DNA of 20,000 nucleotides from NCBI GenBank assembly GCA_965178125.1, contig OZ237756.1, forward strand, positions 980,269 through 1,000,268, written 5' to 3'. Positions 1-20,000 of this stretch are shown here, piece by piece. Origin of the DNA: Bilabrum cf. latius. Taxonomy: Eukaryota. How positions within the stretch are numbered: the stretch's first letter is position 1; each line of letters opens with the position of its first letter. Both the position numbers and the translations under genes were made by a program. The notes under the pieces were generated by a model. It did no database searches. It was given only the letters and a program-made list of their open reading frames with translations, and was not told where the DNA came from.

Positions 1-1
1 A

Positions 2-1052
2 TCATTGCCACCCTTGTTCCCTTCTGAGAGACCTCGGATTCATATCCAAGCTCCTGATGGATACGGTCTTAGCCATCCAAATATTTCCCGTGGCATGGTT
101 GTAGGAATACGAGAGCTGGACAGCTGGAACATATCCAAGAGGCTAATTGGTAAGGTTTAGGCATCGGCAGCATGCTGTCGACTCATGTTATTGTCACAGC
201 CGCGATGAAACCCCCGATTTGCCTGTCGACTTCGCAGATGTCGTCCAAACTGTCTTTCGGATCATGTGCCAGGAACAGCCACCAAACGTGTTTCCCGCTG
301 CTGTGCATAGGTCCCCTCCGGGTTGGTTGGCCGCTCCAGCGCCTGCCCCTACCCCTGCCCCTGCCCCTGCCCCTGCCCCTGCCCCTGCCCCTGCCCCTGC
401 CCCTGCCCCTGCCCCTGCCCCTGCCCCTGCCCCTGCCTACCGCCCGATGCCGTCCACCAGCCGGTCTGTCCCCACGGGCCCCGTGCATATGCCCCCCTGT
501 CCAGATCGCTTTGTGGGCGTGGACAGCATGGAGCCTGCCGTGCTGCAGGTGCTAGCCGTGGATGAGGGAGAGGCGGACAGGACGGTGCACCGGCAGGAGC
601 CCGGGATCCGTGGGCTGCGAGACAGGCTCAAGGGGCTAGTGCAGGCCAACAGGGACATGGCCGGTCGGCTGGTATAGGGGGCAGATGGACCCTCGGGGCA
701 CAGGGTCCGGCGAGAAACCCTCGAGTCTCAACTGGCGGTGCGCCAGGTAGAGGGGGCCCAGCTGGAGGAGAGGCTCAAAGCGGCGCTGCGCAAGAGGGAC
801 CAGGCAGGCGCGGGGCAGGGGGGTGATGCCGCTGCGCTGAGTGCCAAACTTGGGCGCCTGGAGGAATAGGCGGGGGATGAACTGGATGTAGCTCGCGAGG
901 AACTGGTCGATGGGGCTTGGGAGAGCGGGGATGGAAATCGACGGCAGGCCATCAGCAAGGTGTGCGACAGGATCCTGGCCGCTGCCACCCGCAGGGCCGA
1001 GATGCACGGGAAGAGGCTGCTGCTGGATGCGTTTGGACTTGCCACCGAATGA
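2..1052 (+). CDS. VPS37: ESCRT-I subunit, VPS37(A)-like (UEV-like N-terminus, Pro/Ala linker, coiled-coil C-terminus); 5' partial; exons <2-149 and 238-1052
   Basis: Manual translation of exon 1 gives SLPPLFPSERPRIHIQAPDGYGLSHPNISRGMVVGIRELDSWNISKRLI. A GTAAGG...TTCGCAG intron (150-237) joins it in frame to DVVQTVFRIMCQEQPP, resembling the VPS37A UEV-like domain. PPCPDRFVGVDSMEPAVLQVLAVDE and the C-terminal helices resemble the Mod(r) region. The frame passes through TAG at 675-677 and 867-869 and ends at TGA 1050-1052. Family call is from recalled motifs, not a search. Confidence 0.65.
150..237 (+). other. Spliceosomal GT-AG intron (88 bp)
   Basis: G|GTAAGG donor and TTCGCAG| acceptor. Removing it fuses two frames into a continuous UEV-like sequence. 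Confidence 0.7.
342..437 (+). repeat. (CCCCTG)n hexamer microsatellite encoding a Pro-Ala linker
   Basis: About 15 tandem CCCCTG copies, read as (PA)n in the VPS37 frame. Confidence 0.95.
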
Positions 1053-1245
1053 TCGGCTGCAACAGATATACGTGTAGGACGCCACTCACTCGTCATGCGG
1101 CCAACTGATTGTCGGCCTGACCGAGCGACACAAAAATTTAGCCCGCGCCACATCTACTCGGAGCCTCAGGAAATCCACGTGCTCGAAAGACGCCTTCCAA
1201 GGCTCCCAATCAGGTGTGTTTGGAATGGCATTCTAAGCATTAAAT

Positions 1246-3114
1246 ATGGATGCGGTCAGTAGTCCTGCCAGGCGGGCTCGTAGACGAAGGAGACGGAGAC
1301 GCGGTCCAGGCCAATCGGGTGCACAGACTGGTGCGCCTGCTCTGACACTTGGGGGTTTACTATCCAGCTCTCTGGCTGGGCATGATAAACAACCTGCAAA
1401 GGTGCACGATTCCAACCTGTCCAGACCCCATGGCTTGGCAAAAGCACCGGCGATTCCGAAAGGTGGCTCAAGCCGGTTTCGAATCAAACCAGCGTCTGCA
1501 GAAAAGCATGGTGGTCACGGCGGTAACCCTGGCAGCGCCTCGAGAGTAGTTGTCTAGTCCAGACGCAGGAAACGCGCATCTCCTGTTGCAATCGATATGC
1601 TCCGAGAGAGGCTCAACAGGTGGGCGACGAACAATCCAAAAGCAATGTCAGCTGCGCTAGAGCACTTTGCGGGCAGGCCTGCGGACTCGCGCGGGTGCCA
1701 AGAGCTCCGTGAATCTATGGCTGATGTCGACCGGACAGATTCTGAACAAATTGCCAAGGTTGTTGCATGCTTACTGCACTATGGTGGTTTGACGAGAAGT
1801 ACCAATGTGGCAGCAGTCCGATCGATCGTTCCTTGGATCCCTACTGCTGGCTCAGATTAGCGGGATGCCGTGTCACATCACCCACCAGATATGTACATGG
1901 TGGGCAGTGTGAACATTGAGGTGGCAGCTGCTGCCTCATCTGGCCCTACGAAGCCAGCCGGAGTCAAGTCTACCCGTGGAGTTCACGCTGCATCAAACAA
2001 GCTGTCCCTGCACCTACCTGCCTCAGTCATTCGCCTAGAATCGGAGGCGCTCATTGCCGCAGTGCAAGGTGTATCGTCCACTAAACCGCCGTGTGCGACC
2101 GTTTGTCTGGTACATGCAGGAAAGCCCACTGCAAGCGCCGCCCCAACTGTGCCGTGTCCTAGCCCCCATGCAGGGTCATCGGGCAGTGCGCCTGCTGGTC
2201 CAGCACTGGAACTGCAGCCGAGCACAGGAAAGGAACTATGCATCCACATGCCCCTGCAGGCCCCGCTGCTGGCCGCCCCGTTGCCCCCGCACCAGGTGCG
2301 ACTCCGGTGTCCCCATCAGCTGTCCGCCGCGCTGGATGCCGCCGTCGAGGCCATGCTGCGGAGGGTCCGTCGGTTGCAGTGGAGGGCGGAGCAGAAAGAC
2401 CTGGCGGCAGCGAGGCTGAAGCCAAGGTACGTGGCTGGGCTGCGGCAGGCGTGCAGTGCTGTGAGAACGGGCCGTGCTCTGCTGGTGGTGCTGGCTCCAA
2501 ACACCAAGGGTGGAGACGGGAAAGGAGCCATCGGGAGCGGCCCAGGAGATGGCGCCGAGGCAACTGGAGCAGCTTCTGGTGCGGGTGCATCTGACCCGAT
2601 GCATGCCAGCCTGGGTGCAGACCCAGGTCCTCCTCAGCAGCCTCCTCTAGCAACGGGTGGCATGGATGGCAGAGTCCGTGCCTTAGTGCAGTCCATTGTA
2701 GCAGCGCAAAACGACGAAGCAGCTACGGCTGCCTATGCTCTGTCGACCGGCAAAGGTCGTGCTGCTGCCCTGCGCAAGGGCACCGAGTGCATTTGCGCCC
2801 TCTCAACGAAGCGAATCGCTAGGGCGCTGCAGGACGTAGGAGGGGGAAGGCGTGCAGGAGATGCGGCTGCGGGCAGATCAACAGGGGGAAGGCAAGCAGG
2901 AGATGCGGCTGCGGGCAAATCAAGGCGAGGCAGCCGCAAGCGAAGCGGGCCTGAGCACGTGTCGGCGATTGCTCTGCTGTCAGAGGAGCAGCTGGGCGCC
3001 CTGCCGCAGGTTGTGCGGGCCCTGGCTCGCGCCCTAGCTGTGGGTGGTGGTGGGCTCGCTGGCGCTGACGTCCCGGGTGCGCCGGTTGGTCTGTGGGTAC
3101 ACCACAAACTGTGA
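1246..3114 (+). CDS. SECISBP2: SECIS-binding protein 2 (SBP2/SECISBP2)-like L7Ae-domain RNA-binding protein, about 622 aa if TAG is read as sense
   Basis: ORFs 1246-1557, 1597-1860 and 1870-3114 share one frame and are separated only by TAG (1555-1557, 1858-1860); the frame ends at TGA. The C-terminal motifs LDAAVEAMLRRVRRLQWRAEQKDLAAARLKPRYVAGLRQ...LLVVLAPN, GGMDGRVRALV, ICALSTKRIARAL and VSAIALL parallel the SBP2 RNA-binding domain. The start codon is uncertain. Confidence 0.75.
2842..2922 (+). repeat. 42-bp tandem duplication within the CDS
   Basis: GGGGGAAGGCGTGCAGGAGATGCGGCTGCGGGCAGATCAA and GGGGGAAGGCAAGCAGGAGATGCGGCTGCGGGCAAATCAA, encoding GGRRAGDAAAGRST and GGRQAGDAAAGKSR. Confidence 0.85.
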
Positions 3115-3220
3115 CCTTGGCGATGGTGCTGTACAGCAGATTGCCGTGGATACGTCTAGCGAGTAAATCAACTAAATCTTCGACTTGACTGAAAGTACGC
3201 GTTTCGATCTCTCCAGGTCA

Positions 3221-5167
3221 TTACGCGAGCTCGCACTTGCCACTGATGAGCAGCTGCAGCAGCTACTTCTTGTTCACCTTTCCCATAGCGTTGCGGGGAA
3301 TTTCTTCGACCCAAACAACTGCTCGGGGGCTCTTGTACGGAGCCATCTGCCCCAGGGCCCACTCCTGCACCTCCTGGGCGCTTGCATTTGTGCTAACTGG
3401 GGCCCGCACCGCTAGGGCAAGCACCGTCTCACCCATGCCTCTAGCCTCCAGTGCGGCGATGGCATGCCCACACGGTTCCAGCCCGCTACTGTCCCACTTG
3501 TCTCGCAGAGCCTATCGCACAGCTGCTGCATCTTCGTCTGGAATCCCGAGCACTGACACATCGCCGACAGCCTCGTGGTCCAGCATAACCGTCTCGGCCT
3601 CGAGCGCCGACACCTTGTACCCTCCTACCTTAATGATGTCCGCCGATGCACGCCCCAAGATGCGCCAGCGACCCTTCAAATCCCGCGCCACCATATCACC
3701 GGTCTGGAACCACCTTGGGACCGCTTGCACCTGCTCCTGCGACATGGCGCGCTGTGCCGCCGGGCCATTGACACCCTCATAGGCAACCGTGCCAGCGGGC
3801 AGCTGCGACCCCTTCTTGAAGGCCTCTGCAGTCGCCTCTTCCCTGCGCCAATAGTGATCAAACACGCTGGGCCCAGCAAGCCACAGTTCCCCGGTCACTC
3901 CCCCCTCTTCCCCATCCCCATGCTGCACATCCTGCGGTCTTGCCTCGCGGTCAGGAGCCACTGCCGCCATCACCCCCGGCAGCGGCCAGCCCACCGACCC
4001 GAGCACCCTGCCTTCCTCGGGCTCGAATGGATTGGACAGCGCCATGCCCACCTCCGTCATGCCATACCTCTCTAGCAGGCGGCCGCCCGTGCGCTGAGTC
4101 CACGCCCGGCCAAGGGCTGCTGGCAGTGGCGCTGATCCACTGAAGCACTACACTGCTGGGCTACGACCCCGGACATGCTCTTCTTTCAGCACATTCCCCG
4201 TCTACTGCAAGAGCTTGTGGTACATGGCTGGCACTGCCATGAAGCGCGTGGGGGTGCACTGCACTGCAGGTGCATTGTCCTCCTGCCCTGTCAAAGCGCT
4301 CCACACCGTGTCCGGAGAGAACTTGCCCCTGCGCATGTCCACAGTGGCCCCCGCCCACATGGCGCACTGCAATCCGTTGATCAGTCCGTGCACGTGGTGC
4401 AAGGGCAGTGTGTGCAGCACGATGTCGCTGGGTTGCCACTGCCAGGCGTCCACCAGGGTGGAGGTCATGGCATCCAGGGAGGCATGTGTATGTACGACGC
4501 CCTTTGGTCGACTGGTTGTGCCAGAGGTGAATATCATGAGTGCCCCGCTGCCAGATTGCGCAACATGATCCGGCAAATCGTCATGTAGCGGGCGGGCGCT
4601 TACATGTGCAGCGTGCTGCTTATTCCACTGCCGCACTGACACATGCTTCGCATGCAGGTTTCGGGCAAGATCCTTGGCTTCATTGTAGCTGTTGCTAAGA
4701 TCAAGAATGATTCCACTGCCCGAAGAAATTGAGGTCGTGGATGCAACTGTGCTCACCGGCACTGGAAGATTCAGATCCCAAACTCGGCTTGCAAGGGAAC
4801 TGCTGCAGATAACCATAGCAGGATCTGATGTTGTTATCGCATACCCCAACTCAGATTGTGGGTGGGAGTCACACAGTGGGACTACCATAGCGCCAGCTTG
4901 CCAAACTGCCCACTGCGCTGCAACGAAGTCATACCCAGTTGCCAAAACACATACTCTTGGTGTCGCCTGCGCTGACATTTGTTCACTCTTCTTGATTCTA
5001 AGGTACTAGCTGATCTCTACGGCAAGCTGCGCCGAATCAGCTCCCAAGTGCTAGTAAGTAAAGGCATGGGTACGATCCAAATCAAGAATAGCTATTCTCT
5101 CCGGTGAATGCACCTGAGACAGTTTAAAGACAGTAGACATAGGTCTTGCTGGTGATTTGCAGAACAT
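3221..5167 (-). CDS. ACSF3: Malonate-CoA ligase / acyl-CoA synthetase family member 3-like (AMP-binding enzyme), about 650 aa if TAG is read as sense
   Basis: One frame contains IFTSGTTSRPKGVVHTH, LHTLPLHHVHGL, FMAVPAMY, SGSAPLP, LLERYGMTEVGMALSNP, WFQTGD, ILGRASADIIKVGGYKVSALE and MAPYKSPR...IPRNAMGKVNKK. It is interrupted by six TAG codons (5051, 5006, 4202, 4148, 3512, 3263) and ends TAA TGA at 3223-3218. The start is uncertain: ATG 5167, ATG 5140, or ATG 5253 with a GTGAGT...CTGACTAG intron at 5245-5190. Confidence 0.88.
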
Positions 5168-5597
5168 ACCATGTCGTTCTGCAGAATATCTAGTCAGGTG
5201 AGAGCATCGTCCGAACCGCCCGCTGCGATGCAAACAGCAACTCACAATTGCATGTATATTCGAGTACAGCAGAAATCAGTCACGTCTACCTATAACCTTA
5301 CTCTACTCACGCTTTAGAGATAGCTCGAAGCATACAAAATTTGTGTACGTGTAGCTGACGCACCTGCATAAATGTAGATCTAGGAGGCACCATGAGTGGT
5401 GGCTCCGGATCCGAACGCACACGGACCTACCTAACTTGATAGATCGACGTGCAATACTAATTTGGTACTGTAAAGTCATGCTATTGCTTAACACAATCTC
5501 ATATATCGTGCCCACAAGGCGCCAGCGGCACCCTCCAAACCTCATCCGTGGCGCTCTCGTCTAGCCTCCGGTACATGTTCGTGAGGCCAAGGATAAT

Positions 5598-6477
5598 GGG
5601 TTTAGGGTTAGGGTTAGGGTTAGGGTTAGGGTTAGGGTTAGGGTTAGGGTTAGGGTTAGGGTTAGGGTTAGGGTTAGGGTTAGGGTTAGGGTTAGGGTTA
5701 GGGTTAGGGTTAGGGTTAGGGTTAGGGTTAGGGTTAGGGTTAGGGTTAGGGTTAGGGTTAGGGTTAGGGTTAGGGTTAGGGTTAGGGTTAGGGTTAGGGT
5801 TAGGGTTAGGGTTAGGGTTAGGGTTAGGGTTAGGGTTAGGGTTAGGGTTAGGGTTAGGGTTAGGGTTAGGGTTAGGGTTAGGGTTAGGGTTAGGGTTAGG
5901 GTTAGGGTTAGGGTTAGGGTTAGGGTTAGGGTTAGGGTTAGGGTTAGGGTTAGGGTTAGGGTTAGGGTTAGGGTTAGGGTTAGGGTTAGGGTTAGGGTTA
6001 GGGTTAGGGTTAGGGTTAGGGTTAGGGTTAGGGTTAGGGTTAGGGTTAGGGTTAGGGTTAGGGTTAGGGTTAGGGTTAGGGTTAGGGTTAGGGTTAGGGT
6101 TAGGGTTAGGGTTAGGGTTAGGGTTAGGGTTAGGGTTAGGGTTAGGGTTAGGGTTAGGGTTAGGGTTAGGGTTAGGGTTAGGGTTAGGGTTAGGGTTAGG
6201 GTTAGGGTTAGGGTTAGGGTTAGGGTTAGGGTTAGGGTTAGGGTTAGGGTTAGGGTTAGGGTTAGGGTTAGGGTTAGGGTTAGGGTTAGGGTTAGGGTTA
6301 GGGTTAGGGTTAGGGTTAGGGTTAGGGTTAGGGTTAGGGTTAGGGTTAGGGTTAGGGTTAGGGTTAGGGTTAGGGTTAGGGTTAGGGTTAGGGTTAGGGT
6401 TAGGGTTAGGGTTAGGGTTAGGGTTAGGGTTAGGGTTAGGGTTAGGGTTAGGGTTAGGGTTAGGGTTAGGGTTAGGG
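5598..6477 (+). repeat. Telomeric (TTAGGG)n tract 1, about 146 copies
   Basis: Perfect TTAGGG array; the first unit reads GGG-TTTAGGG. Confidence 0.99.
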
Positions 6478-6540
6478 TATCTAATATAAAGTCAGGGACA
6501 GGGTCGGGGAAAAAATATTTTCATCTTCAATATTTGTCGA

Positions 6541-7613
6541 AAAACGACGTGCTACGATCTCGGTAACTACAGGTGATATGAAGACCGTTCAAACTGCATC
6601 GGGACGGCCTGGGGGCACAACATGGGCCAAATGTTCCCCAGGTTCCGTTCTGGCCGCGTGGCGCCGATATGGGTGTATGAAGAATTTCACACCGAAAAAC
6701 GACGTGCTACGATCTCGGCAACTACAGGTGATATGAAGACCGTTCAAACTGCATCGGGACGGCCTGGGGGCACAACATGGGCCAAATGTTCCCCAGGTTC
6801 CGTTCTGGCCGCGCGGCGCCGATATGGGTGTATGAAGAATTTCACACCGAAAAACGACGTGCTACGATCTCGGCAACTACAGGTGATATGAAGACCGTTC
6901 AAACTGCATCGGGACGGCCTGGGGGCACAACATGGGCCAAATGTTCCCCAGGTTCCGTTCTGGCCGCGCGGCGCCGATATGGGTGTATGAAGAATTTCAC
7001 ACCGAAAAACGACGTGCTACGATCTCGGCAACTACAGGTGATATGAAGACCGTTCAAACTGCATCGGGACGGCCTGGGGGCACAACATGGGCCAAATGTT
7101 CCCCAGGTTCCGTTCTGGCCGCGCGGCGCCGATATGGGTGTATGAAGAATTTCACACCGAAAAACGACGTGCTACGATCTCGGCAACTACAGGTGATATG
7201 AAGACCGTTCAAACTGCATCGGGACGGCCTGGGGGCACAACATGGGCCAAATGTTCCCCAGGTTCCGTTCTGGCCGCGCGGCGCCGATATGGGTGTATGA
7301 AGAATTTCACACCGAAAAACGACGTGCTACGATCTCGGCAACTACAGGTGATATGAAGACCGTTCAAACTGCATCGGGACGGCCTGGGGGCACAACATGG
7401 GCCAAATGTTCCCCAGGTTCCGTTCTGGCCGCGCGGCGCCGATATGGGTGTATGAAGAATTTCACACCGAAAAACGACGTGCTACGATCTCGGCAACTAC
7501 AGGTGATATGAAGACCGTTCAAACTGCATCGGGACGGCCTGGGAGCACAACATGGGCCAAATGTTCCCCAGGTTCCGTTCTGGCCGCGCGGCGCCGATAT
7601 GGGTGTATGAAGA
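6541..7613 (+). repeat. 155-bp tandem satellite, subfamily A
   Basis: Near-identical monomers AAAACGACGTGCTACGATCTCGGCAACTACAGG... with a 155-bp period. Confidence 0.97.
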
Positions 7614-7865
7614 TTTGCATGTTTATTCAATATGCATGGTTTATCTGTCAATTGTAGAATGGGTATGGTGTACATGACAGTTGTATTTGCTGTGTGGATT
7701 GCTTTGATCTAAGGTATTAACTGGTTGACACGTCAAGACTCAACAGAATGCCTCCCGGCTCCTAATGCTGCGTCCGAATGGGTCAATGGCAGACACTTTG
7801 GCAAACTCCTCTCACAAGCTGGCCCAGCTGCCACTGACCTCAATTGCCGTCCCCCTGCCTGCCTC

Positions 7866-8009
7866 TCACTCGTCACCGAAAGCTGCTAGGAGCGCTTCCA
7901 CAGCGTCGACGTCTGCCGCATTGAGATCTCCTTTCGCCGTCTTCTCGAGGGCCGTCATCAGGTTTGCGAACATTTCCAACTCGCGGTCCCTCTCTTCAAT
8001 TGTTGCCTC
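7866..8009 (-). pseudogene. Possible 5'-truncated coding fragment (47 codons plus TGA) in the element tail
   Basis: EATIEERDRELEMFANLMTALEKTAKGDLNAADVDAVEALLAAFGDE* has a helical, protein-like composition and is cut off by the telomeric tract. No family recognised. Confidence 0.4.
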
Positions 8010-8010
8010 G

Positions 8011-8407
8011 GTTTAGGTTAGGGTTAGGGTTAGGGTTAGGGTTAGGGTTAGGGTTAGGGTTAGGGTTAGGGTTAGGGTTAGGGTTAGGGTTAGGGTTAGG
8101 GTTAGGGTTAGGGTTAGGGTTAGGGTTAGGGTTAGGGTTAGGGTTAGGGTTAGGGTTAGGGTTAGGGTTAGGGTTAGGGTTAGGGTTAGGGTTAGGGTTA
8201 GGGTTAGGGTTAGGGTTAGGGTTAGGGTTAGGGTTAGGGTTAGGGTTAGGGTTAGGGTTAGGGTTAGGGTTAGGGTTAGGGTTAGGGTTAGGGTTAGGGT
8301 TAGGGTTAGGGTTAGGGTTAGGGTTAGGGTTAGGGTTAGGGTTAGGGTTAGGGTTAGGGTTAGGGTTAGGGTTAGGGTTAGGGTTAGGGTTAGGGTTAGG
8401 GTTAGGG
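8011..8407 (+). repeat. Telomeric tract 2
   Basis: (TTAGGG)n with a variant GTTTAGG start. Confidence 0.98.
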
Positions 8408-9717
8408 TATCTAATATAAAGTCAGGGACAGGGTCGGGGAAAAAAAAATTTCATCTTCACTTTTTGTCGAAAAAATGCGCGCGACGATCTCGGCAACCAG
8501 ATGAGATATGAGGACCGTTCAAACTGCATCGGGACGGCCTGGGGGTACAATGTTGGGCAAATGTTCCCCAGGTTCCGTTTATACCGCGCGGCGACAATAT
8601 GGCTGGACGAAGATTGTCATGCAGAAAAAATGCGCGCGACGATCTCGGCAACCAGATGAGATATGAAGACCGTTCAAACTGCATCGGGACGGCCTGGGGG
8701 TACAATGTGGGGCAAATGTTCCCCAGGTTCCGTTTTGACCGCGCGGCGACAATATGGCTGGACAAAGATTGTCATGCAGAAAAAATGCGCGCGACGATCT
8801 CGGCAACCAGATGAGATATGAAGACCGTTCAAACTGCATCGGGACGGCCTGGGACCACAACAGGGGGCAAATGTTCCCCAGGTTCCGTTTTGACCGCGCG
8901 GCGACAATATGGCTGGACGAAGATTGTCATGCAGAAAAAATGCGCGCGACGATCTCGGCAACCAGATGAGATATGAAGACCGTTCAAACTGCATCGGGAC
9001 GGCCTGGGGGTACAATGTGGGGCAAATGTTCCCCAGGTTCCGTTTTGACCGCGCGGCGACAATATGGCTGGACGAAGATTGTCATGCAGAAAAAATGCGC
9101 GCGACGATCTCGGCAACCAGATGAGATATGAAGACCGTTCAAACTGCATCGGGACGGCCTGGGGGTACAATGTGGGGCAAATGTTCCCCAGGTTCCGTTT
9201 TGACCGCGCGGCGACAATATGGCTGGACGAAGATTGTCATGCAGAAAAAATGCGCGCGACGATCTCGGCAACCAGATGAGATATGAAGACCGTTCAAACT
9301 GCATCGGGACGGCCTGGGGGTACAATGTGGGGCAAATGTTCCCCAGGTTCCGTTTTGACCGCGCGGCGACAATATGGCTGGACGAAGATTGTCATGCAGA
9401 AAAAATGCGCGCGACGATCTCGGCAACCAGATGAGATATGAAGACCGTTCAAACTGCATCGGGACGGCCTGGGGGTACAATGTGGGGCAAATGTTCCCCA
9501 GGTTCCGTTTTGACCGCGCGGCGACAATATGGCTGGACGAAGATTGTCATGCAGAAAAAATGCGCGCGACGATCTCGGCAACCAGATGAGATATGAAGAC
9601 CGTTCAAACTGCATCGGGACGGCCTGGGGGTACAATGTGGGGCAAATGTTCCCCAGGTTCCGTTTTGACCGCGCGGCGACAATATGGCTGGACGAAGATT
9701 GTCATGCAGAAAAAATG
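8408..9717. mobile_element. Element copy 2 (subfamily B): head and 8 x 155-bp monomers, truncated within the array
   Basis: Same head; monomers AAAAATGCGCGCGACGATCTCGGCAACCAGATGAG... span 8471-9710; ends AAAAATG|GGTTAGGG. Confidence 0.6.
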
Positions 9718-9820
9718 GGTAGGGTTAGGGTTAGGGTTAGGGTTAGGGTTAGGGTTAGGGTTAGGGTTAGGGTTAGGGTTAGGGTTAGGGTTAGGGTTAG
9801 GGTTAGGGTTAGGGTTAGGG
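9718..9820 (+). repeat. Telomeric tract 3
   Basis: About 17 TTAGGG copies. Confidence 0.98.
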
Positions 9821-10815
9821 TATCTAATATAAAGTCAGGGACAGGGTCGGGGAAAAAATATTTTCATCTTCACTTTTTGTCGAAAAAATACAACATAGGA
9901 TCTCGGCAACCACAGGAGATATGAAGACCGTTGAAACGGCATTAGGACCGCCTAGGGGCACAACATGGGGCAAATGCTCCCCAGGTTCCGTTTTTGTCGC
10001 GCGGCGCCGATATGGATCGATGAAGATTTACATGCTGCAAAAATACAACATAGGATCTCGGCAACCACAGGAGATATGAAGACCGTTGAAACGGCATTAG
10101 GACCGCCTAGGGGCACAACATGGGGCAAATGTTCCCCAGGTTCCGTTTTTGTCGCGCGGCGCCGATATGGATCGATGAAGATTTACATGCTGCAAAAATA
10201 CAACATAGGATCTCGGCAACCACAGGAGATATGAAGACCGTTGAAACGGCATTAGGACCGCCTAGGGGCACAACATGGGGCAAATGTTCCCCAGGTTCCG
10301 TTTTTGTCGCGCGGTGCCGATATGGATCGATGAAGATTTACATGCTGCAAAAATACAACATAGGATTTCGGCAACCACAGGAGATATGAAGACCGTTGAA
10401 ACGGCATTAGGACCGCCTAGGGGCACAACATGGGGCAAATGTTCCCCAGGTTCCGTTTTTGTCGCGCGGTGCCGATATGGATCGATGAAGATTTACATGC
10501 TGCAAAAATACAACATAGGATCTCGGCAACCACAGGAGATATGAAGACCGTTGAAACGGCATTAGGACCGCCTGGGGGCACAACATGGGGCAAATGTTCC
10601 CCAGGTTCCGTTTTTGTCGCGCGGCGCCGATATGGATCGATGAAGATTTACATGCTGCAAAAATACAACATAGGATCTCGGCAACCACAGGAGATATGAA
10701 GACCGTTGAAACGGCATTAGGACCGCCTAGGGGCACAACATGGGGCAAATGTTCCCCAGGTTCCGTTTTTGTCGCGCGGCGCCGATATGGATCGATGAAG
10801 ATTTACATGCTGCAA
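9821..10815. mobile_element. Element copy 3 (subfamily C): head and 6 x 155-bp monomers
   Basis: Monomers AAAATACAACATAGGATCTCGGCAACCACAGGAG...; ends at GCTGCAA followed by G10. Confidence 0.6.
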
Positions 10816-11126
10816 GGGGGGGGGGTTAAGGGTTAGGGTTAGGGTTAGGGTTAGGGTTAGGGTTAGGGTTAGGGTTAGGGTTAGGGTTAGGGTTAGGGTT
10901 AGGGTTAGGGTTAGGGTTAGGGTTAGGGTTAGGGTTAGGGTTAGGGTTAGGGTTAGGGTTAGGGTTAGGGTTAGGGTTAGGGTTAGGGTTAGGGTTAGGG
11001 TTAGGGTTAGGGTTAGGGTTAGGGTTAGGGTTAGGGTTAGGGTTAGGGTTAGGGTTAGGGTTAGGGTTAGGGTTAGGGTTAGGGTTAGGGTTAGGGTTAG
11101 GGTTAGGGTTAGGGTTAGGGTTAGGG
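10816..11126 (+). repeat. Telomeric tract 4: G10-TTAAGGG-(TTAGGG)n, 311 bp
   Basis: Read directly from the sequence. Confidence 0.97.
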
Positions 11127-12121
11127 TATCTAATATAAAGTCAGGGACAGGGTCGGGGAAAAAATATTTTCATCTTCACTTTTTGTCGAAAAAATACAAC
11201 ATAGGATCTCGGCAACCACAGGAGATATGAAGACCGTTGAAACGGCATTAGGACCGCCTAGGGGCACAACATGGGGCAAATGCTCCCCAGGTTCCGTTTT
11301 TGTCGCGCGGCGCCGATATGGATCGATGAAGATTTACATGCTGCAAAAATACAACATAGGATCTCGGCAACCACAGGAGATATGAAGACCGTTGAAACGG
11401 CATTAGGACCGCCTAGGGGCACAACATGGGGCAAATGTTCCCCAGGTTCCGTTTTTGTCGCGCGGCGCCGATATGGATCGATGAAGATTTACATGCTGCA
11501 AAAATACAACATAGGATCTCGGCAACCACAGGAGATATGAAGACCGTTGAAACGGCATTAGGACCGCCTAGGGGCACAACATGGGGCAAATGTTCCCCAG
11601 GTTCCGTTTTTGTCGCGCGGTGCCGATATGGATCGATGAAGATTTACATGCTGCAAAAATACAACATAGGATTTCGGCAACCACAGGAGATATGAAGACC
11701 GTTGAAACGGCATTAGGACCGCCTAGGGGCACAACATGGGGCAAATGTTCCCCAGGTTCCGTTTTTGTCGCGCGGTGCCGATATGGATCGATGAAGATTT
11801 ACATGCTGCAAAAATACAACATAGGATCTCGGCAACCACAGGAGATATGAAGACCGTTGAAACGGCATTAGGACCGCCTGGGGGCACAACATGGGGCAAA
11901 TGTTCCCCAGGTTCCGTTTTTGTCGCGCGGCGCCGATATGGATCGATGAAGATTTACATGCTGCAAAAATACAACATAGGATCTCGGCAACCACAGGAGA
12001 TATGAAGACCGTTGAAACGGCATTAGGACCGCCTAGGGGCACAACATGGGGCAAATGTTCCCCAGGTTCCGTTTTTGTCGCGCGGCGCCGATATGGATCG
12101 ATGAAGATTTACATGCTGCAA
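11127..12121. mobile_element. Element copy 4 (subfamily C), duplicate of copy 3
   Basis: Offset 1306 bp with the same diagnostic variants (ATGCTCCCC in monomer 1, GATTTCGG, CCTGGGGG). Confidence 0.6.
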
Positions 12122-12432
12122 GGGGGGGGGGTTAAGGGTTAGGGTTAGGGTTAGGGTTAGGGTTAGGGTTAGGGTTAGGGTTAGGGTTAGGGTTAGGGTT
12201 AGGGTTAGGGTTAGGGTTAGGGTTAGGGTTAGGGTTAGGGTTAGGGTTAGGGTTAGGGTTAGGGTTAGGGTTAGGGTTAGGGTTAGGGTTAGGGTTAGGG
12301 TTAGGGTTAGGGTTAGGGTTAGGGTTAGGGTTAGGGTTAGGGTTAGGGTTAGGGTTAGGGTTAGGGTTAGGGTTAGGGTTAGGGTTAGGGTTAGGGTTAG
12401 GGTTAGGGTTAGGGTTAGGGTTAGGGTTAGGG
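12122..12432 (+). repeat. Telomeric tract 5 (311 bp, same as tract 4)
   Basis: Same G10-TTAAGGG start and same length as tract 4. Confidence 0.97.
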
Positions 12433-13427
12433 TATCTAATATAAAGTCAGGGACAGGGTCGGGGAAAAAATATTTTCATCTTCACTTTTTGTCGAAAAAA
12501 TACAACATAGGATCTCGGCAACCACAGGAGATATGAAGACCGTTGAAACGGCATTAGGACCGCCTAGGGGCACAACATGGGGCAAATGCTCCCCAGGTTC
12601 CGTTTTTGTCGCGCGGCGCCGATATGGATCGATGAAGATTTACATGCTGCAAAAATACAACATAGGATCTCGGCAACCACAGGAGATATGAAGACCGTTG
12701 AAACGGCATTAGGACCGCCTAGGGGCACAACATGGGGCAAATGTTCCCCAGGTTCCGTTTTTGTCGCGCGGCGCCGATATGGATCGATGAAGATTTACAT
12801 GCTGCAAAAATACAACATAGGATCTCGGCAACCACAGGAGATATGAAGACCGTTGAAACGGCATTAGGACCGCCTAGGGGCACAACATGGGGCAAATGTT
12901 CCCCAGGTTCCGTTTTTGTCGCGCGGTGCCGATATGGATCGATGAAGATTTACATGCTGCAAAAATACAACATAGGATTTCGGCAACCACAGGAGATATG
13001 AAGACCGTTGAAACGGCATTAGGACCGCCTAGGGGCACAACATGGGGCAAATGTTCCCCAGGTTCCGTTTTTGTCGCGCGGTGCCGATATGGATCGATGA
13101 AGATTTACATGCTGCAAAAATACAACATAGGATCTCGGCAACCACAGGAGATATGAAGACCGTTGAAACGGCATTAGGACCGCCTGGGGGCACAACATGG
13201 GGCAAATGTTCCCCAGGTTCCGTTTTTGTCGCGCGGCGCCGATATGGATCGATGAAGATTTACATGCTGCAAAAATACAACATAGGATCTCGGCAACCAC
13301 AGGAGATATGAAGACCGTTGAAACGGCATTAGGACCGCCTAGGGGCACAACATGGGGCAAATGTTCCCCAGGTTCCGTTTTTGTCGCGCGGCGCCGATAT
13401 GGATCGATGAAGATTTACATGCTGCAA
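12433..13427. mobile_element. Element copy 5 (subfamily C), duplicate of copies 3 and 4
   Basis: Offset 1306 bp with the same variants. Confidence 0.6.
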
Positions 13428-13636
13428 GGGGGGGGGGTTAAGGGTTAGGGTTAGGGTTAGGGTTAGGGTTAGGGTTAGGGTTAGGGTTAGGGTTAGGGTT
13501 AGGGTTAGGGTTAGGGTTAGGGTTAGGGTTAGGGTTAGGGTTAGGGTTAGGGTTAGGGTTAGGGTTAGGGTTAGGGTTAGGGTTAGGGTTAGGGTTAGGG
13601 TTAGGGTTAGGGTTAGGGTTAGGGTTAGGGTTAGGG
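13428..13636 (+). repeat. Telomeric tract 6 (209 bp)
   Basis: G10-TTAAGGG start; 102 bp shorter than tracts 4 and 5. Confidence 0.97.
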
Positions 13637-14410
13637 TATCTAATATAAAGTCAGGGACAGGGTCGGGGAAAAAATATTTTCATCTTCAATATTTGTCGAA
13701 AAACGACGTGCTACGATCTCGGCAACTACAGGTGATATGAAGACCGTTCAAACTGCATCGGGACGGCCTGGGGGCACAACATGGGCCAAATGTTCCCCAG
13801 GTTCCGTTCTGGCCGCGCGGCGCCGATATGGGTGTATGAAGAATTTCACACCGAAAAACGACGTGCTACGATCTCGGCAACTACAGGTGATATGAAGACC
13901 GTTCAAACTGCATCGGGACGGCCTGGGGGCACAACATGGGCCAAATGTTCCCCAGGTTCCGTTCTGGCCGCGCGGCGCCGATATGGGTGTATGAAGAATT
14001 TCACACCGAAAAACGACGTGCTACGATCTCGGCAACTACAGGTGATATGAAGACCGTTCAAACTGCATCGGGACGGCCTGGGGGCACAACATGGGCCAAA
14101 TGTTCCCCAGGTTCCGTTCTGGCCGCGCGGCGCCGATATGGGTGTATGAAGAATTTCACACCGAAAAACGACGTGCTACGATCTCGGCAACTACAGGTGA
14201 TATGAAGACCGTTCAAACTGCATCGGGACGGCCTGGGGGCACAACATGGGCCAAATATTCCCCAGGTTCCGTTCTGGCCGCGCGGCGCTGATATGGGTGT
14301 ATGAAGATTTGCATGTCTATTCAATATGCATGGTTTATCTGTCAATTGTAGAATGGGGATGGTGTACATGACAGTTGTATTTGCTGTGTGGATTGCTTTG
14401 ATCTAAGGTA
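13637..14410. mobile_element. Element copy 6 (subfamily A): head, about 4 monomers, about 100-bp tail
   Basis: The tail matches the copy 1 tail but is truncated at AAGGTATTA|GGG. Confidence 0.6.
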
Positions 14411-14662
14411 TTAGGGTTAAGGTTAGGGTTAGGGTTAGGGTTAGGGTTAGGGTTAGGGTTAGGGTTAGGGTTAGGGTTAGGGTTAGGGTTAGGGTTAGGG
14501 TTAGGGTTAGGGTTAGGGTTAGGGTTAGGGTTAGGGTTAGGGTTAGGGTTAGGGTTAGGGTTAGGGTTAGGGTTAGGGTTAGGGTTAGGGTTAGGGTTAG
14601 GGTTAGGGTTAGGGTTAGGGTTAGGGTTAGGGTTAGGGTTAGGGTTAGGGTTAGGGTTAGGG
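14411..14662 (+). repeat. Telomeric tract 7 (252 bp)
   Basis: TTAGGG-TTAAGG-(TTAGGG)n. Confidence 0.97.
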
Positions 14663-16417
14663 TATCTAATATAAAGTCAGGGACAGGGTCGGGGAAAAAA
14701 AATTTTCATCTTCACTTTTTGTCGAAAAAATGCGCGCGACGATCTCGGCAACCAGATGAGATATGAGGACCGTTCAAACTGCATCGGGACGGCCTGGGGG
14801 TACAATGTGGGGCAAATGTTCCCCAGGTTCCGTTTTGACCGCGCGGCGACAATATGGCTGGACGAAGATTGTCATGCAGAAAAAATGCGCGCAACGATCT
14901 CGGCAACCAGATGAGATATGAAGACTGTTCAAACTGCATCGGGACGGCCTGGGGGTACAATGTTAGGCAAATGTTCCCCAGGTTCCGTTTATACCGCGCG
15001 GCGACAATATGGCTGGACGAAGATTGTCATGCAGAAAAAATGCGCGCGACGATCTCGGCAACCAGATGAGATATGAAGACCGTTCAAACTGCATCGGGAC
15101 GGCCTGGGACCACAACTGGGGGCAAATGTTCCCCAGGTTCCGTTTATACCGCGCGGCGACAATATGGCTGGACGAAGATTGTCATGCAGAAAAAATGCGC
15201 GCGGCGATCTCGGCAACCAGATGAGATATGAAGACCGTTCAAACTGCATCGGGACGGCCTGGGACCACAACTGGGGGCAAATGTTCCCCAGGTTCCGTTT
15301 ATACCGCGCGGCGACAATATGGCTGGACGAAGATTGTCATGCAGAAAAAATGCGCGCGACGATCTCGGCAACCAGATGAGATATGAAGACCGTTCATACT
15401 GCATCGGGACGGCCTGGGGGTACAATGTGGGGCAAATGTTCCCCAGATTCCGTTTTGACCGCGCGGCGACAGTATGGGGGGACGAAGATTTTCAGGCAGA
15501 AAAAATGCGCGCGGCGATCTCGGCAACCACAGGAGATATGAAGACCGTTCAAACTGCATCGGGACGGCCTGGGACCACAACTGGGGGCAAATGTTCCCCA
15601 GGTTCCGTTTATACCGCGCGGCGACAATATGGCTGGACGAAGATTGTCATGCAGAAAAAATGCGCGCGGCGATCTCGGCAACCAGATGAGATATGAAGAC
15701 CGTTCAAACTGCATCGGGACGGCCTGGGACCACAACTGGGGGCAAATGTTCCCCAGGTTCCGTTTATTCCGCGCGGCGACAATATGGCTGGACGAAGATT
15801 GTCATGCAGAAAAAATGCGCGCGACGATCTCGGCAACCAGATGAGATATGAAGACCGTTCATACTGCATCGGGACGGCCTGGGGGTACAATGTGGGGCAA
15901 ATGTTCCCCAGATTCCGTTTTGACCGCGCGGCGACAGTATGGGGGGACGAAGATTTTCAGGCAGAAAAAATGCGCGCGGCGATCTCGGCAACCACAGGAG
16001 ATATGAAGACCGTTCAAACTGCATCGGGACGGCCTGGGACCACAACAGGGGGCAAATGTTCCCCAGGTTCCGTTTATACCGCGCGGCGACAGTATGGTGG
16101 GACGAAGATTGTCATGCAGAAAAAATGCGCGCGGCGATCTCGGCAACCAGATGAGATATGAAGACCGTTCAAACTGCATCGGGACGGCCTGGGACCACAA
16201 CTGGGGGCAAATGTTCCCCGTGATTCTATTACATCAAGCATTGCAAGTATGGGGTTTGCACACCTACATGGTTGGGTTTGCATACGTACATGGGTTCGGG
16301 TTAGGTAAGAGGTTTTCCTTAGGGGCGTTCATTAGCTGTAAATGAGATTTCTTGATTTCAGCCGTTCATTCGCACTTTGAGTCATCATCATGTGTCATGT
16401 GTGCGAAGTTTGGAGAA
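14663..16417. mobile_element. Element copy 7 (subfamily B variant): head, about 9.6 monomers, about 200-bp unique tail
   Basis: Monomers 14726-16219; tail 16220-16417 differs from the subfamily A tail. Confidence 0.6.
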
Positions 16418-16806
16418 TAGGGTTAGGGTTAGGGTTAGGGTTAGGGTTAGGGTTAGGGTTAGGGTTAGGGTTAGGGTTAGGGTTAGGGTTAGGGTTAGGG
16501 TTAGGGTTAGGGTTAGGGTTAGGGTTAGGGTTAGGGTTAGGGTTAGGGTTAGGGTTAGGGTTAGGGTTAGGGTTAGGGTTAGGGTTAGGGTTAGGGTTAG
16601 GGTTAGGGTTAGGGTTAGGGTTAGGGTTAGGGTTAGGGTTAGGGTTAGGGTTAGGGTTAGGGTTAGGGTTAGGGTTAGGGTTAGGGTTAGGGTTAGGGTT
16701 AGGGTTAGGGTTAGGGTTAGGGTTAGGGTTAGGGTTAGGGTTAGGGTTAGGGTTAGGGTTAGGGTTAGGGTTAGGGTTAGGGTTAGGGTTAGGGTTAGGG
16801 TTAGGG
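16418..16806 (+). repeat. Telomeric tract 8
   Basis: (TTAGGG)n. Confidence 0.98.
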
Positions 16807-17580
16807 TATCTAATATAAAGTCAGGGACAGGGTCGGGGAAAAAATATTTTCATCTTCAATATTTGTCGAAAAACGACGTGCTACGATCTCGGCAACTACA
16901 GGTGATATGAAGACCGTTCAAACTGCATCGGGACGGCCTGGGGGCACAACATGGGCCAAATGTTCCCCAGGTTCCGTTCTGGCCGCGCGGCGCCGATATG
17001 GGTGTATGAAGAATTTCACACCGAAAAACGACGTGCTACGATCTCGGCAACTACAGGTGATATGAAGACCGTTCAAACTGCATCGGGACGGCCTGGGGGC
17101 ACAACATGGGCCAAATGTTCCCCAGGTTCCGTTCTGGCCGCGCGGCGCCGATATGGGTGTATGAAGAATTTCACACCGAAAAACGACGTGCTACGATCTC
17201 GGCAACTACAGGTGATATGAAGACCGTTCAAACTGCATCGGGACGGCCTGGGGGCACAACATGGGCCAAATGTTCCCCAGGTTCCGTTCTGGCCGCGCGG
17301 CGCCGATATGGGTGTATGAAGAATTTCACACCGAAAAACGACGTGCTACGATCTCGGCAACTACAGGTGATATGAAGACCGTTCAAACTGCATCGGGACG
17401 GCCTGGGGGCACAACATGGGCCAAATATTCCCCAGGTTCCGTTCTGGCCGCGCGGCGCTGATATGGGTGTATGAAGATTTGCATGTCTATTCAATATGCA
17501 TGGTTTATCTGTCAATTGTAGAATGGGGATGGTGTACATGACAGTTGTATTTGCTGTGTGGATTGCTTTGATCTAAGGTA
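16807..17580. mobile_element. Element copy 8 (subfamily A), duplicate of copy 6
   Basis: Offset 3170 bp with the same variants and truncation point. Confidence 0.6.
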
Positions 17581-17832
17581 TTAGGGTTAAGGTTAGGGTT
17601 AGGGTTAGGGTTAGGGTTAGGGTTAGGGTTAGGGTTAGGGTTAGGGTTAGGGTTAGGGTTAGGGTTAGGGTTAGGGTTAGGGTTAGGGTTAGGGTTAGGG
17701 TTAGGGTTAGGGTTAGGGTTAGGGTTAGGGTTAGGGTTAGGGTTAGGGTTAGGGTTAGGGTTAGGGTTAGGGTTAGGGTTAGGGTTAGGGTTAGGGTTAG
17801 GGTTAGGGTTAGGGTTAGGGTTAGGGTTAGGG
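17581..17832 (+). repeat. Telomeric tract 9 (252 bp, same as tract 7)
   Basis: Same TTAAGG variant and same length as tract 7. Confidence 0.97.
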
Positions 17833-19587: not shown

Positions 19588-19875
19588 TAGGGTTAGGGGT
19601 TAGGGTTAGGGTTAGGGTTAGGGTTAGGGTTAGGGTTAGGGTTAGGGTTAGGGTTAGGGTTAGGGTTAGGGTTAGGGTTAGGGTTAGGGTTAGGGTTAGG
19701 GTTAGGGTTAGGGTTAGGGTTAGGGTTAGGGTTAGGGTTAGGGTTAGGGTTAGGGTTAGGGTTAGGGTTAGGGTTAGGGTTAGGGTTAGGGTTAGGGTTA
19801 GGGTTAGGGTTAGGGTTAGGGTTAGGGTTAGGGTTAGGGTTAGGGTTAGGGTTAGGGTTAGGGTTAGGGTTAGGG
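19588..19875 (+). repeat. Telomeric tract 10
   Basis: (TTAGGG)n with one TTAGGGG near the start. Confidence 0.97.
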
Positions 19876-19916
19876 TATCTAATATAAAGTCAGGGACAGG
19901 GTCGGGGAAAAAATAT
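19876..19916. mobile_element. Element copy 10: head only (about 41 bp)
   Basis: TATCTAATATAAAGTCAGGGACAGGGTCGGGGAAAAAATATTT followed by AGGGTTAGGG. Confidence 0.6.
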
Positions 19917-20000
19917 TTAGGTTAGGGTTAGGGTTAGGGTTAGGGTTAGGGTTAGGGTTAGGGTTAGGGTTAGGGTTAGGGTTAGGGTTAGGGTTAGGGT
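19917..20000 (+). repeat. Telomeric tract 11 (runs off the window; possibly terminal)
   Basis: (TTAGGG)n to the window end. Confidence 0.97.

What the first reader, a model, noticed from the sequence alone, without database searches (positions are those of the whole stretch)
2..5167. Non-standard nuclear genetic code: UAG is a sense codon (probably Gln) in all three genes
Seen: three unrelated genes on both strands each read as one frame broken only by TAG. VPS37-like has two (675, 867), SBP2-like two (1555, 1858) and ACSF3-like six (5051, 5006, 4202, 4148, 3512, 3263). There are no frameshifts and no internal TGA or TAA, and conserved motifs continue past the TAGs (AV*CFSGSAPLP...LLERYGMTE; IPRNAMGKVNKK*LL; HAFTY*HL). 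Pseudogene decay would give mixed stop types and frameshifts. Inference: the contexts FTY*HL, KLLQ*, NKK*L and LEE*A suit Gln or Glu. Established: TAR=Gln occurs in ciliates, diplomonads and some ulvophyte algae, whereas UAG-only reassignment is rare (e.g. Iotanema spirale Gln, an uncultured rhizarian Leu).
Basis: partly seen in the sequence, partly recalled or inferred. Interest (0 to 1): 0.92.

Follow-up and report, generated by a model that had tools for sequence, protein, structure and literature searches.

The report
Stop codon TAG read as sense
This unidentified, gene-dense eukaryote and two relatives use the stop codon TAG inside working genes, a rare change of the nuclear genetic code, but which amino acid TAG stands for is still open.

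Summary
Three expressed genes next to a TTAGGG chromosome end carry 10 in-frame TAG codons and no in-frame TAA or TGA in 1,589 codons.

Spliced RNA-like contigs from two further studies keep every TAG with no other letter, so neither editing nor splicing removes them.

Two relatives show the same pattern:
- Protein fragments of a close relative (91% and 84% identical) end exactly at two of the window's TAG sites.
- A metagenome relative, 51% identical in the malonyl-CoA synthetase, has 19 in-frame TAG and no in-frame TAA or TGA in two genes. Two of its TAGs lie at the same sites as in the window.

I conclude that UAG is a sense codon in this clade. The genes end at TGA or TAA.

The residue is not settled. 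A tree-based likelihood over 13 TAG columns leaves Gln and Ser about equal (0.29-0.55 against 0.25-0.38). It rejects Leu and other hydrophobic residues by 9-18 log units, although one TAG conserved in both species may sit in a nearly invariant Leu column.

UAG-only codes are already known in several lineages (Gln, Leu, Ser, Glu). I could not place this organism. The scan earlier noted a TAG-sense, TAA-stop code on other DNA, a soil giant-virus contig (e1-5483482).

The parts
2..149 (+). Gene 1, last part of an upstream exon (the reading frame runs off the window start)
   Evidence: RNA-like contigs of X5, X6 and X7 join 148/149 to 237/238. The DNA run X1 runs through the gap. The frame is open from base 2.
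150..237 (+). Gene 1 intron, 88 nt, GT..AG
   Evidence: Joint 'skips 88, GT..AG (cut +1)' in 3 of 3 RNA-like runs and in 0 of 1 DNA run.
238..1052 (+). Gene 1 last exon: Pro/Ala repeat, then a coiled-coil-like tail. In-frame TAG at 675-677 and 867-869; stop TGA at 1050-1052. Function not identified.
   Evidence: Contigs 445-1017 (X5), 445-1010 (X6) and 445-1013 (X7) have 0 other letters. No Pfam or PDB identity.
1246..3114 (+). Gene 2, 622 codons, no intron. In-frame TAG at 1555-1557 and 1858-1860; stop TGA at 3112-3114. Weak L7Ae-like stretch at residues about 350-450.
   Evidence: One X5 contig covers 1211-3161 with 0 other letters.
3221..5167 (-). Gene 3, ACSF3/MatB-type malonyl-CoA synthetase, 648 codons. 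In-frame TAG (low coordinates) at 3263, 3512, 4148, 4202, 5006 and 5051. Stop TAA at 3221-3223, followed directly by TGA.
   Evidence: Pfam AMP-binding 5.7e-56 and AMP-binding_C 1.3e-7. PDB 4fuq malonyl-CoA synthetase 1.6e-48. X5 contigs 3164-3892, 3920-4172 and 4156-5222 have 0 other letters.
5223..5310 (-). Gene 3 intron in the 5' untranslated region, 88 nt, GT..AG on the - strand
   Evidence: Joint 5222 to 5311 in X5 and X6, absent from DNA run X1.

Best explanation
The organism reads UAG as an amino-acid codon in its nuclear genes, while UGA and probably UAA end translation. This is a UAG-only stop-to-sense reassignment shared by a small clade: the window's species, a close relative and a more distant environmental relative.

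The likely mechanism is inferred from known cases and was not seen here. A tRNA with anticodon CUA would pair with UAG but not UAA, together with a release factor eRF1 that has lost its grip on UAG.

The encoded residue is polar or small. My estimate is Gln about 60-65%, Ser about 20%, and Glu, Ala or another residue about 15%.

Shown here: TAG lies inside conserved, expressed, selected reading frames and stays in the RNA. Inferred: the decoding tRNA, the eRF1 change and the residue.
For: (1) In the window there are 10 in-frame TAG, 0 TAA and 0 TGA in 1,589 codons, P = 4e-5 against the off-frame mix.

(2) RNA: X5, X6 and X7 are shown to be RNA-derived by two GT..AG joints that the DNA run X1 lacks. 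Their contigs cover all ten TAG sites colinearly, and table 3 lists no other letters. One contig (X6, 1839-2966) has one unlisted other letter, but X5 1211-3161 and X6 1208-1865 cover site 1858 with none.

(3) Close relative: P0124 (235 of 258 residues identical) ends at residue 357, just before TAG358. P0125 (151 of 179 identical) ends at 587, just before TAG588.

(4) Distant relative L001/L002: its ACSF3 is 321 of 625 identical to the window's, with 9 in-frame TAG. A second ORF with an Mcm10 OB fold (Pfam 7e-8) has 10 in-frame TAG. Neither has an in-frame TAA or TGA, P = 2e-8. TAG aligns with TAG at W90/M90 and W376/M417.

(5) None of the four gene ends seen is TAG: TGA, TGA, TAA in the window and TAA in the relative.

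(6) TAA is not a second sense codon. It is 0 of 19 in-frame stop triplets in the relative, whose A-ending codons are common (CAA 28 against CAG 21, GAA 43 against GAG 25).

(7) Residue: the likelihood of the other sequences given each amino acid, over 13 columns, gives Q 0.55, S 0.25, A 0.10, E 0.04 on one alignment and S 0.38, Q 0.29, E 0.15, A 0.08 on the other. Leu is at -10 to -15.6 log units. At two well-aligned sites the relative's TAG faces CAG (Gln) in the window (W216, W303).
Against: - No tRNA gene lies in the window and no genome is held, so neither tRNA(CUA) nor eRF1 could be examined.
- Only four gene ends were seen. Both TAA ends are followed by TGA, directly in the window and five codons later in the relative. 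TAA as a true terminator is therefore not proven, and occasional termination at TAG cannot be excluded.
- Against Gln specifically: Ser does as well or better on one alignment.
- The TAG conserved in both species (GTG TAG TGC TTC in each) falls, in the ungapped alignment, in a column that is Leu in 119 of 120 homologues. A polar residue there is unexpected. MAFFT's merged alignment instead places it in a 3-residue insertion.
- The RNA status of X5-X7 is the tool's guess, supported only by the splice joints.
Confidence: 0.9

Rival explanations
1. Same reassignment, but UAG encodes serine, as reported for the green alga Scotinosphaera. A tRNA-Ser with anticodon CUA would do it, since seryl-tRNA synthetase does not read the anticodon.
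For: Ser is the best residue on alignment v1 (0.38) and second on v2 (0.25). One TAG of the relative faces TCG (Ser) in the window, and Ser in the close relative. Several TAGs of the relative's second ORF lie in Ser-rich tracts. The precedent has the same stop usage, TAA and TGA (PMC8271138, passages read).
Against: Two TAGs face CAG (Gln) in conserved contexts. No green-algal affinity was found: in the ACSF3 tree the clade is sister to four unnamed environmental sequences, not to Trebouxia. The telomere repeat is TTAGGG, whereas TTTAGGG is usual in green algae (recalled). No TGTAA poly(A) signal was seen by eye in the 3' regions (the signal itself is recalled).
Confidence: 0.2
2. UAG has two meanings: it is read through as sense inside genes but also ends some genes, depending on position, as in Condylostoma or Blastocrithidia for other codons.
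For: Only four gene ends were seen, so termination at UAG elsewhere is not excluded.
Against: None of the 4 ends is TAG. The base after the 29 in-frame TAGs shows no bias (T 10, C 8, A 6, G 5).
Confidence: 0.08
3. Both UAG and UAA are sense codons (the UAR-to-Gln code of ciliates, some ulvophytes and Amoeboaphelidium), and UGA is the only stop.
For: Every gene end seen has a TGA at the end or within five codons after the TAA.
Against: None of the 29 in-frame stop triplets is TAA. That includes 0 of 19 in the relative, where A-ending synonymous codons are as common as G-ending ones. The window is not Amoeboaphelidium: published genomes are 40% G+C (PMC10608142, Table 1) against 55-65% here, and no near-identical annotated protein exists.
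Confidence: 0.04
4. UAG encodes leucine, as in the rhizarian exLh and some phyllopharyngean ciliates.
For: TAG376, conserved in both species, aligns without gaps to a column that is Leu in 119 of 120 homologues.
Against: Leu is -10 to -15.6 log units below the best residue. None of the 10 residues facing a TAG between the two species is hydrophobic: G, A, E, N, Q, Q, R, K, S, P. Five further family columns hold no Leu in 29 sequences.
Confidence: 0.02
5. The TAGs are not translated: the genes are decaying pseudogenes, or the TAGs are assembly errors or positions edited or spliced out of the RNA.
For: None found.
Against: The only stop type is TAG and there are no frameshifts. Independent runs give identical letters and the RNA-like contigs are colinear across the sites. 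The same pattern, and two identical sites, occur in a relative 49% diverged in protein sequence, with conserved motifs after the TAGs.
Confidence: 0.01

Closest known systems
UAG-only to Gln nuclear codes: Iotanema spirale (PMC5304391); Hartmannula sinica, Trochilia petrani and Protocruzia tuzeti (PMC11687900); NCBI table 15
   Same: UAG is sense while UAA and UGA stay out of reading frames. Gln is the single most likely residue here.
   Different: The residue is not established here. The organism is not a ciliate by its TTAGGG telomere repeat (ciliate repeats are recalled). It is unlikely to be a fornicate, since it keeps a mitochondrial-type ACSF3 (inference).
Scotinosphaera (Ulvophyceae): TAG to Ser, with TAA and TGA as stops (Li et al. 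2021, PMC8271138)
   Same: Same codon and same retained stops. Ser is statistically as good as Gln here.
   Different: No evidence that the window is a green alga. Two TAG/CAG pairs point to Gln. I had no Scotinosphaera sequence to compare; the paper's alignments are in supplements or on Figshare, which I could not see.
Rhizarian exLh and uncultured phyllopharyngean ciliates: UAG to Leu (PMC5304391, PMC11687900)
   Same: UAG-only reassignment. One conserved TAG sits in a Leu column.
   Different: Leu is rejected by about 10-16 log units over 13 columns.
UAR to Gln codes (NCBI table 6: many ciliates, Dasycladales, Trentepohliales and Cladophorales, oxymonads, Amoeboaphelidium protococcarum)
   Same: A stop-to-sense change involving UAG.
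   Different: None of the 29 in-frame stop triplets here is TAA.

Membership tests
UAG-only stop-to-sense nuclear genetic code | In-frame UAG in several unrelated, conserved protein-coding genes, with homology continuing past it | tested here: met
   10 TAG in 3 genes of the window and 19 in 2 ORFs of a relative. ACSF3 motifs continue after the TAGs.
UAG-only stop-to-sense nuclear genetic code | UAG is present in mature mRNA (not edited, not spliced out) | tested here: met
   Spliced contigs of X5, X6 and X7 cover all ten sites. Table 3 lists no other letters.
UAG-only stop-to-sense nuclear genetic code | UAA and UGA do not occur in frame | tested here: met
   No TAA and no TGA in 1,589 codons of the window and 1,512 codons of the relative.
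UAG-only stop-to-sense nuclear genetic code | Genes end at UAA or UGA and never at UAG | tested here: inconclusive
   None of the 4 ends is TAG (TGA, TGA, TAA, TAA). But n = 4, and each TAA is followed by TGA within 0-5 codons.
UAG-only stop-to-sense nuclear genetic code | A cognate tRNA with anticodon CUA | not testable with these tools
   No tRNA in the window, no Rfam match, no genome held.
UAG-only stop-to-sense nuclear genetic code | eRF1 N-domain changes that weaken recognition of UAG | not testable with these tools
   eRF1 is not in the window and no genome is held.
NCBI table 15 type (UAG = Gln) | UAG columns match Gln in homologues | tested here: inconclusive
   Q 0.29-0.55 against S 0.25-0.38 over 13 columns. 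Two TAG/CAG pairs.
Scotinosphaera type (UAG = Ser) | UAG columns match Ser in homologues; organism in Scotinosphaerales | tested here: inconclusive
   Residue as in the row above. Lineage not resolved: the ACSF3 tree puts the clade beside unnamed environmental sequences.
NCBI table 6 type (UAA and UAG = Gln) | In-frame UAA as well as UAG | tested here: not met
   None of the 29 in-frame stop triplets is TAA, although A-ending codons are common in the relative.
Pseudogene | Mixed stop types, frameshifts, no expression, no conservation | tested here: not met

The most novel reading that the evidence does not exclude
This is an independent, so far undescribed origin of a UAG-only nuclear code, in a eukaryotic clade that is neither ciliate, fornicate, the known rhizarian nor Scotinosphaera. 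The clade has a sequenced strain with a telomere-bearing assembly and at least two relatives.

The bolder version is that UAG is tolerated at an otherwise invariant Leu site in both species because its decoding is unusual, for example by more than one tRNA, or as a residue other than Gln.
Probability: 0.45. Interest if true: 0.75.

Novelty: new member of a known kind. Interest (0 to 1): 0.62.

Why it matters
Splitting the meaning of UAG from UAA in a nuclear genome is rare. The papers I read (PMC5304391, PMC11687900, PMC8271138) name the cases listed under Closest known systems plus one uncultured ciliate.

An organism with this code that also has DNA and RNA runs and a telomere-bearing assembly would let three things be read directly: the tRNA(CUA), the eRF1 changes and the order of events.

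The practical consequence is immediate. Standard-code gene callers cut this organism's proteins into pieces. In the large protein collection only fragments of its relative were found, and no full-length copy. Any annotation, phylogenomic matrix or metagenome binning that includes this clade therefore needs the right code.

Tried and rejected
- **Whole genome:** not held. No genome-wide codon inference, tRNA search or eRF1 search was possible.
- **RNA record:** the run search listed no holder on record as RNA. RNA status was inferred from splice joints.
- **Gene 2 relatives:** the search for shorter relatives gave nothing. The all-against-all representative search gave 16 hits, all with E above 1e-10 and all on residues about 275-534, with no clade relative. 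Gene 2 therefore added nothing on the residue.
- **Other collections:** Genome contigs gave only bacterial homologues at 27-37% identity. Viral contigs had no pattern match.
- **Metagenome loci:** of 80 loci, only L001 and L002 have a TAG-interrupted ACSF3 frame. The other multi-TAG ORFs listed lie on the other strand, outside the match, or have their TAGs at the ORF ends. I judged this by coordinates only.
- **Raw likelihoods:** the un-normalised likelihood ranked Ala, Ser and Glu first. I set it aside because it rewards common amino acids, and replaced it with the likelihood of the other sequences given the residue.
- **A simple column score** was also inconclusive, and some of its columns were misaligned.
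- **bS21-like stretch:** a weak match in the relative's second ORF puts a TAG opposite Gln of plastid S21 (E 0.03-0.15, no Pfam hit). I rejected it as evidence because the query had been translated with Q at TAG, which biases the alignment.
- **Gene 1:** Pfam and PDB gave only low-complexity matches. It looks like a TSG101/Vps23 UEV tail by eye, but that is recall only.
- **Amoeboaphelidium:** considered as the source and rejected on G+C content and the lack of near-identical annotated proteins.
- **Literature:** searches found no paper describing a matching organism. That covers only the held library.
Full report
**What is in the window.** Bases 1-5355 hold three genes. The remaining 14.5 kb is ten arrays of TTAGGG alternating with a 155-bp satellite, and the window ends inside a TTAGGG array. 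This is therefore a gene-dense chromosome end of a eukaryote. The genic part is 55-65% G+C.

Gene 1 (+ strand) has an 88-nt GT..AG intron at 150-237 and ends with TGA at 1050-1052. Gene 2 (+ strand, 1246-3114) has no intron and ends with TGA. Gene 3 (- strand, 5167-3221) ends with TAA followed directly by TGA, and has an 88-nt intron in its 5' untranslated region (5223-5310).

Gene 3 is an ACSF3/MatB-type malonyl-CoA synthetase (Pfam AMP-binding 5.7e-56; PDB 4fuq 1.6e-48). Gene 2 has only a sub-threshold L7Ae-like match. It also has 16 weak hits on residues about 275-534 in the 1.8-billion-protein library. Gene 1 has no supported identity.

**The observation.** In the coding frames there are 10 TAG, 0 TAA and 0 TGA in 1,589 codons. 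The two other frames of the same DNA hold 31 TAG, 9 TAA and 45 TGA. All ten being TAG therefore has P = 4e-5. The base after TAG shows no bias.

**Do the TAGs stay in the RNA?** One search found 11 public runs from 6 studies that hold the stretch. I laid four of them on bases 1-5600.

X1 behaves as DNA: its contigs run through both introns. X5, X6 (one study) and X7 (another study) behave as RNA. Their contigs skip 149/150-237, and X5 and X6 also skip 5223-5310, with GT..AG ends. The pieces follow gene boundaries; for example, one X5 contig covers 1211-3161, which is gene 2.

Every TAG site is covered by at least one such contig, and sites 675, 867, 1555 and 1858 by all three runs. The table of other letters is empty. 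One X6 contig (1839-2966) carries one unlisted other letter. Two other contigs cover site 1858 without any.

Splicing and editing are thus excluded for these sites, and so is a private assembly error. The caveats are that these are assembled contigs, not reads, and that their RNA nature rests on the splice joints.

**Relatives.** No full-length protein closer than 42% identity exists in the 5.8-billion-protein collection. That is what one expects if gene callers cut this clade's proteins at TAG.

The search among shorter proteins found two fragments from one 2.7-kb contig. P0124 is 235 of 258 identical to residues 100-357. P0125 is 151 of 179 identical to residues 411-587. Both end exactly one residue before a TAG of the window, TAG358 and TAG588.

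A scan of metagenome contigs gave L001 and L002, which match over the stretches compared and are 51% G+C. Their ACSF3 has the same clade-specific insertions and is 321 of 625 identical to the window's. It carries 9 in-frame TAG and ends with TAA. A second ORF on the other strand, with an Mcm10 OB fold (Pfam 7e-8), carries 10 more.

In these two ORFs the count is 19 TAG, 0 TAA and 0 TGA, P = 2e-8. Two TAGs are at the same aligned sites as in the window (W90/M90 and W376/M417). At the second of these the flanking codons are also identical (GTG TAG TGC TTC).

In a quick maximum-likelihood tree the window and L002 form a clade (SH-aLRT 99). That clade is sister (99) to four unnamed, uninterrupted environmental sequences. 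It does not group with fungi, animals, Trebouxia, Willaertia or bacteria. The trait is therefore older than the split of two species that differ at half of their ACSF3 residues. The lineage itself remains unplaced.

**Which codons are affected?** TAA is never in frame. In the relative, A-ending synonymous codons are as frequent as G-ending ones (CAA 28 against CAG 21, GAA 43 against GAG 25). A sense TAA should then be about as common as TAG, yet the count is 0 against 19. This argues against the UAR-to-Gln code.

None of the four gene ends seen is TAG. However, both TAA ends are followed by TGA within 0-5 codons. So 'TAA terminates' and 'TAG never terminates' rest on too few ends.

Between the two species, the residues facing a TAG are G, A, E, N (window TAG) and Q, Q, R, K, S, P (relative's TAG). 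None of the 10 is hydrophobic. Two are CAG (Gln) in well-conserved contexts.

Against 120 homologues, most TAG columns are variable and polar. TAG376, however, falls in a column that is Leu in 119 of 120. A merged MAFFT alignment instead puts it in a 3-residue insertion.

I computed, on a fixed tree with LG+G4 and fixed branch lengths, the likelihood of all other sequences given each of the 20 residues at the 13 TAG columns. I divided out the probability of the residue itself by means of control columns. With the insertion alignment the result is S 0.38, Q 0.29, E 0.15, A 0.08. With TAG376 placed under Leu it is Q 0.55, S 0.25, A 0.10, E 0.04. Leu is at -15.6 and -10.0 log units respectively, and the other hydrophobic residues lie between -9.3 and -17.7.

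The raw likelihoods (Ala first) reward common residues, so I did not use them.

The conclusion is a polar or small residue, with Gln and Ser not separable on this window. I weight by how often each residue is seen in the UAG-only cases named in the papers read:
- Gln in four lineages.
- Leu in two.
- Ser and Glu in one each.

On that basis I put Gln at about 60-65% and Ser at about 20%.

**What is known.** I read the following:
- Passages of PMC5304391: the rhizarian exLh (Leu), Iotanema (Gln), and the argument for a CUA anticodon and eRF1 changes.
- The abstract, discussion passages and first part of the reference list of PMC11687900: phyllopharyngean ciliates (Leu and Gln), Protocruzia (Gln), and an uncultured ciliate with UAA = Lys and UAG = Glu.
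- Passages of PMC8271138: Scotinosphaera, TAG to Ser with TAA and TGA as stops.
- One passage of PMC6299283: Amoeboaphelidium protococcarum, TAG and TAA to Gln.
- Passages and Table 1 of PMC10608142: Amoeboaphelidium genomes are 40% G+C.

The kind of code is thus known. Whether this organism is one of the described lineages I cannot tell. It is not Amoeboaphelidium, and a TTAGGG telomere argues against a ciliate (ciliate repeats are recalled). Seven literature searches found no matching description in the held library. Supplements were closed. The Scotinosphaera alignments that could settle the closest rival are among them or on Figshare.

I did not test any link.

**Verdict.** UAG as a sense codon is supported by RNA evidence and by two relatives (confidence about 0.9). 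The residue is open. I classify it as a new member of a known kind, with about even odds that the lineage itself is undescribed.

Noticed in passing
window 5602-20000: Ten perfect or near-perfect TTAGGG arrays (17 to 146 copies) alternate with blocks of a 155-bp satellite (4 to 15 copies). Four of the array-to-satellite junctions were checked (at about 6470, 8400, 11120 and 14655). Each array is followed by the same junction of about 60 nt (GTATCTAATATAAAGTCAGGGACAGGG...). The window ends inside an array, with the G-rich strand running 5' to 3' towards the end. Whether this is a real subtelomere or a long-read assembly artefact was not tested.
   Followed up: partly
window 4148-4150 (- strand; residue 376 of P0001) and L002 4230-4232: A TAG conserved in both species, with identical flanking codons (GTG TAG TGC TTC). 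Just before the SGSAPL motif, in the ungapped alignment, it sits in a column that is Leu in 119 of 120 homologues. No candidate residue other than Leu fits that column, yet Leu is rejected by the other twelve columns.
   Followed up: partly
window 150-237 and 5223-5310: The only two introns seen are both exactly 88 nt long, with GT..AG ends.
   Followed up: no
window 3114-3221: Genes 2 and 3 converge with only 106 nt between their stop codons. The RNA-like contigs of the two genes stop at 3161 and 3164, so their 3' ends abut or overlap.
   Followed up: no
window 342-437: (CCTGCC)16 encodes a (Pro-Ala)n linker in gene 1. All short-read contigs break here (329 to 445).
   Followed up: no
window 3218-3223 (- strand); L002 5166-5183: The ACSF3 genes end with TAA followed by TGA, directly in the window and five codons later in the relative. 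This is either a tandem back-up stop or a hint that TGA is the effective terminator.
   Followed up: partly
L002 3-2453 (- strand): One 817-codon frame open under TAG = sense combines an Mcm10 OB fold (residues 175-263, Pfam 7e-8) with a stretch at about 600-670 that weakly resembles plastid ribosomal protein bS21 (PDB E 0.03-0.15, no Pfam hit). It may be two genes in one frame, a fusion or chance.
   Followed up: partly
window 2841-2923: A 42-bp tandem duplication (2 copies, 92% alike) inside gene 2 repeats a 14-residue Gly/Arg/Ala-rich peptide.
   Followed up: no
runs X1-X11: The same stretch is held by runs filed under at least five different coded organism labels and two metagenome labels, in six studies. 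Contigs are letter-identical in three of those studies. This suggests the organism travels with other cultures or samples, or is filed under several names.
   Followed up: no
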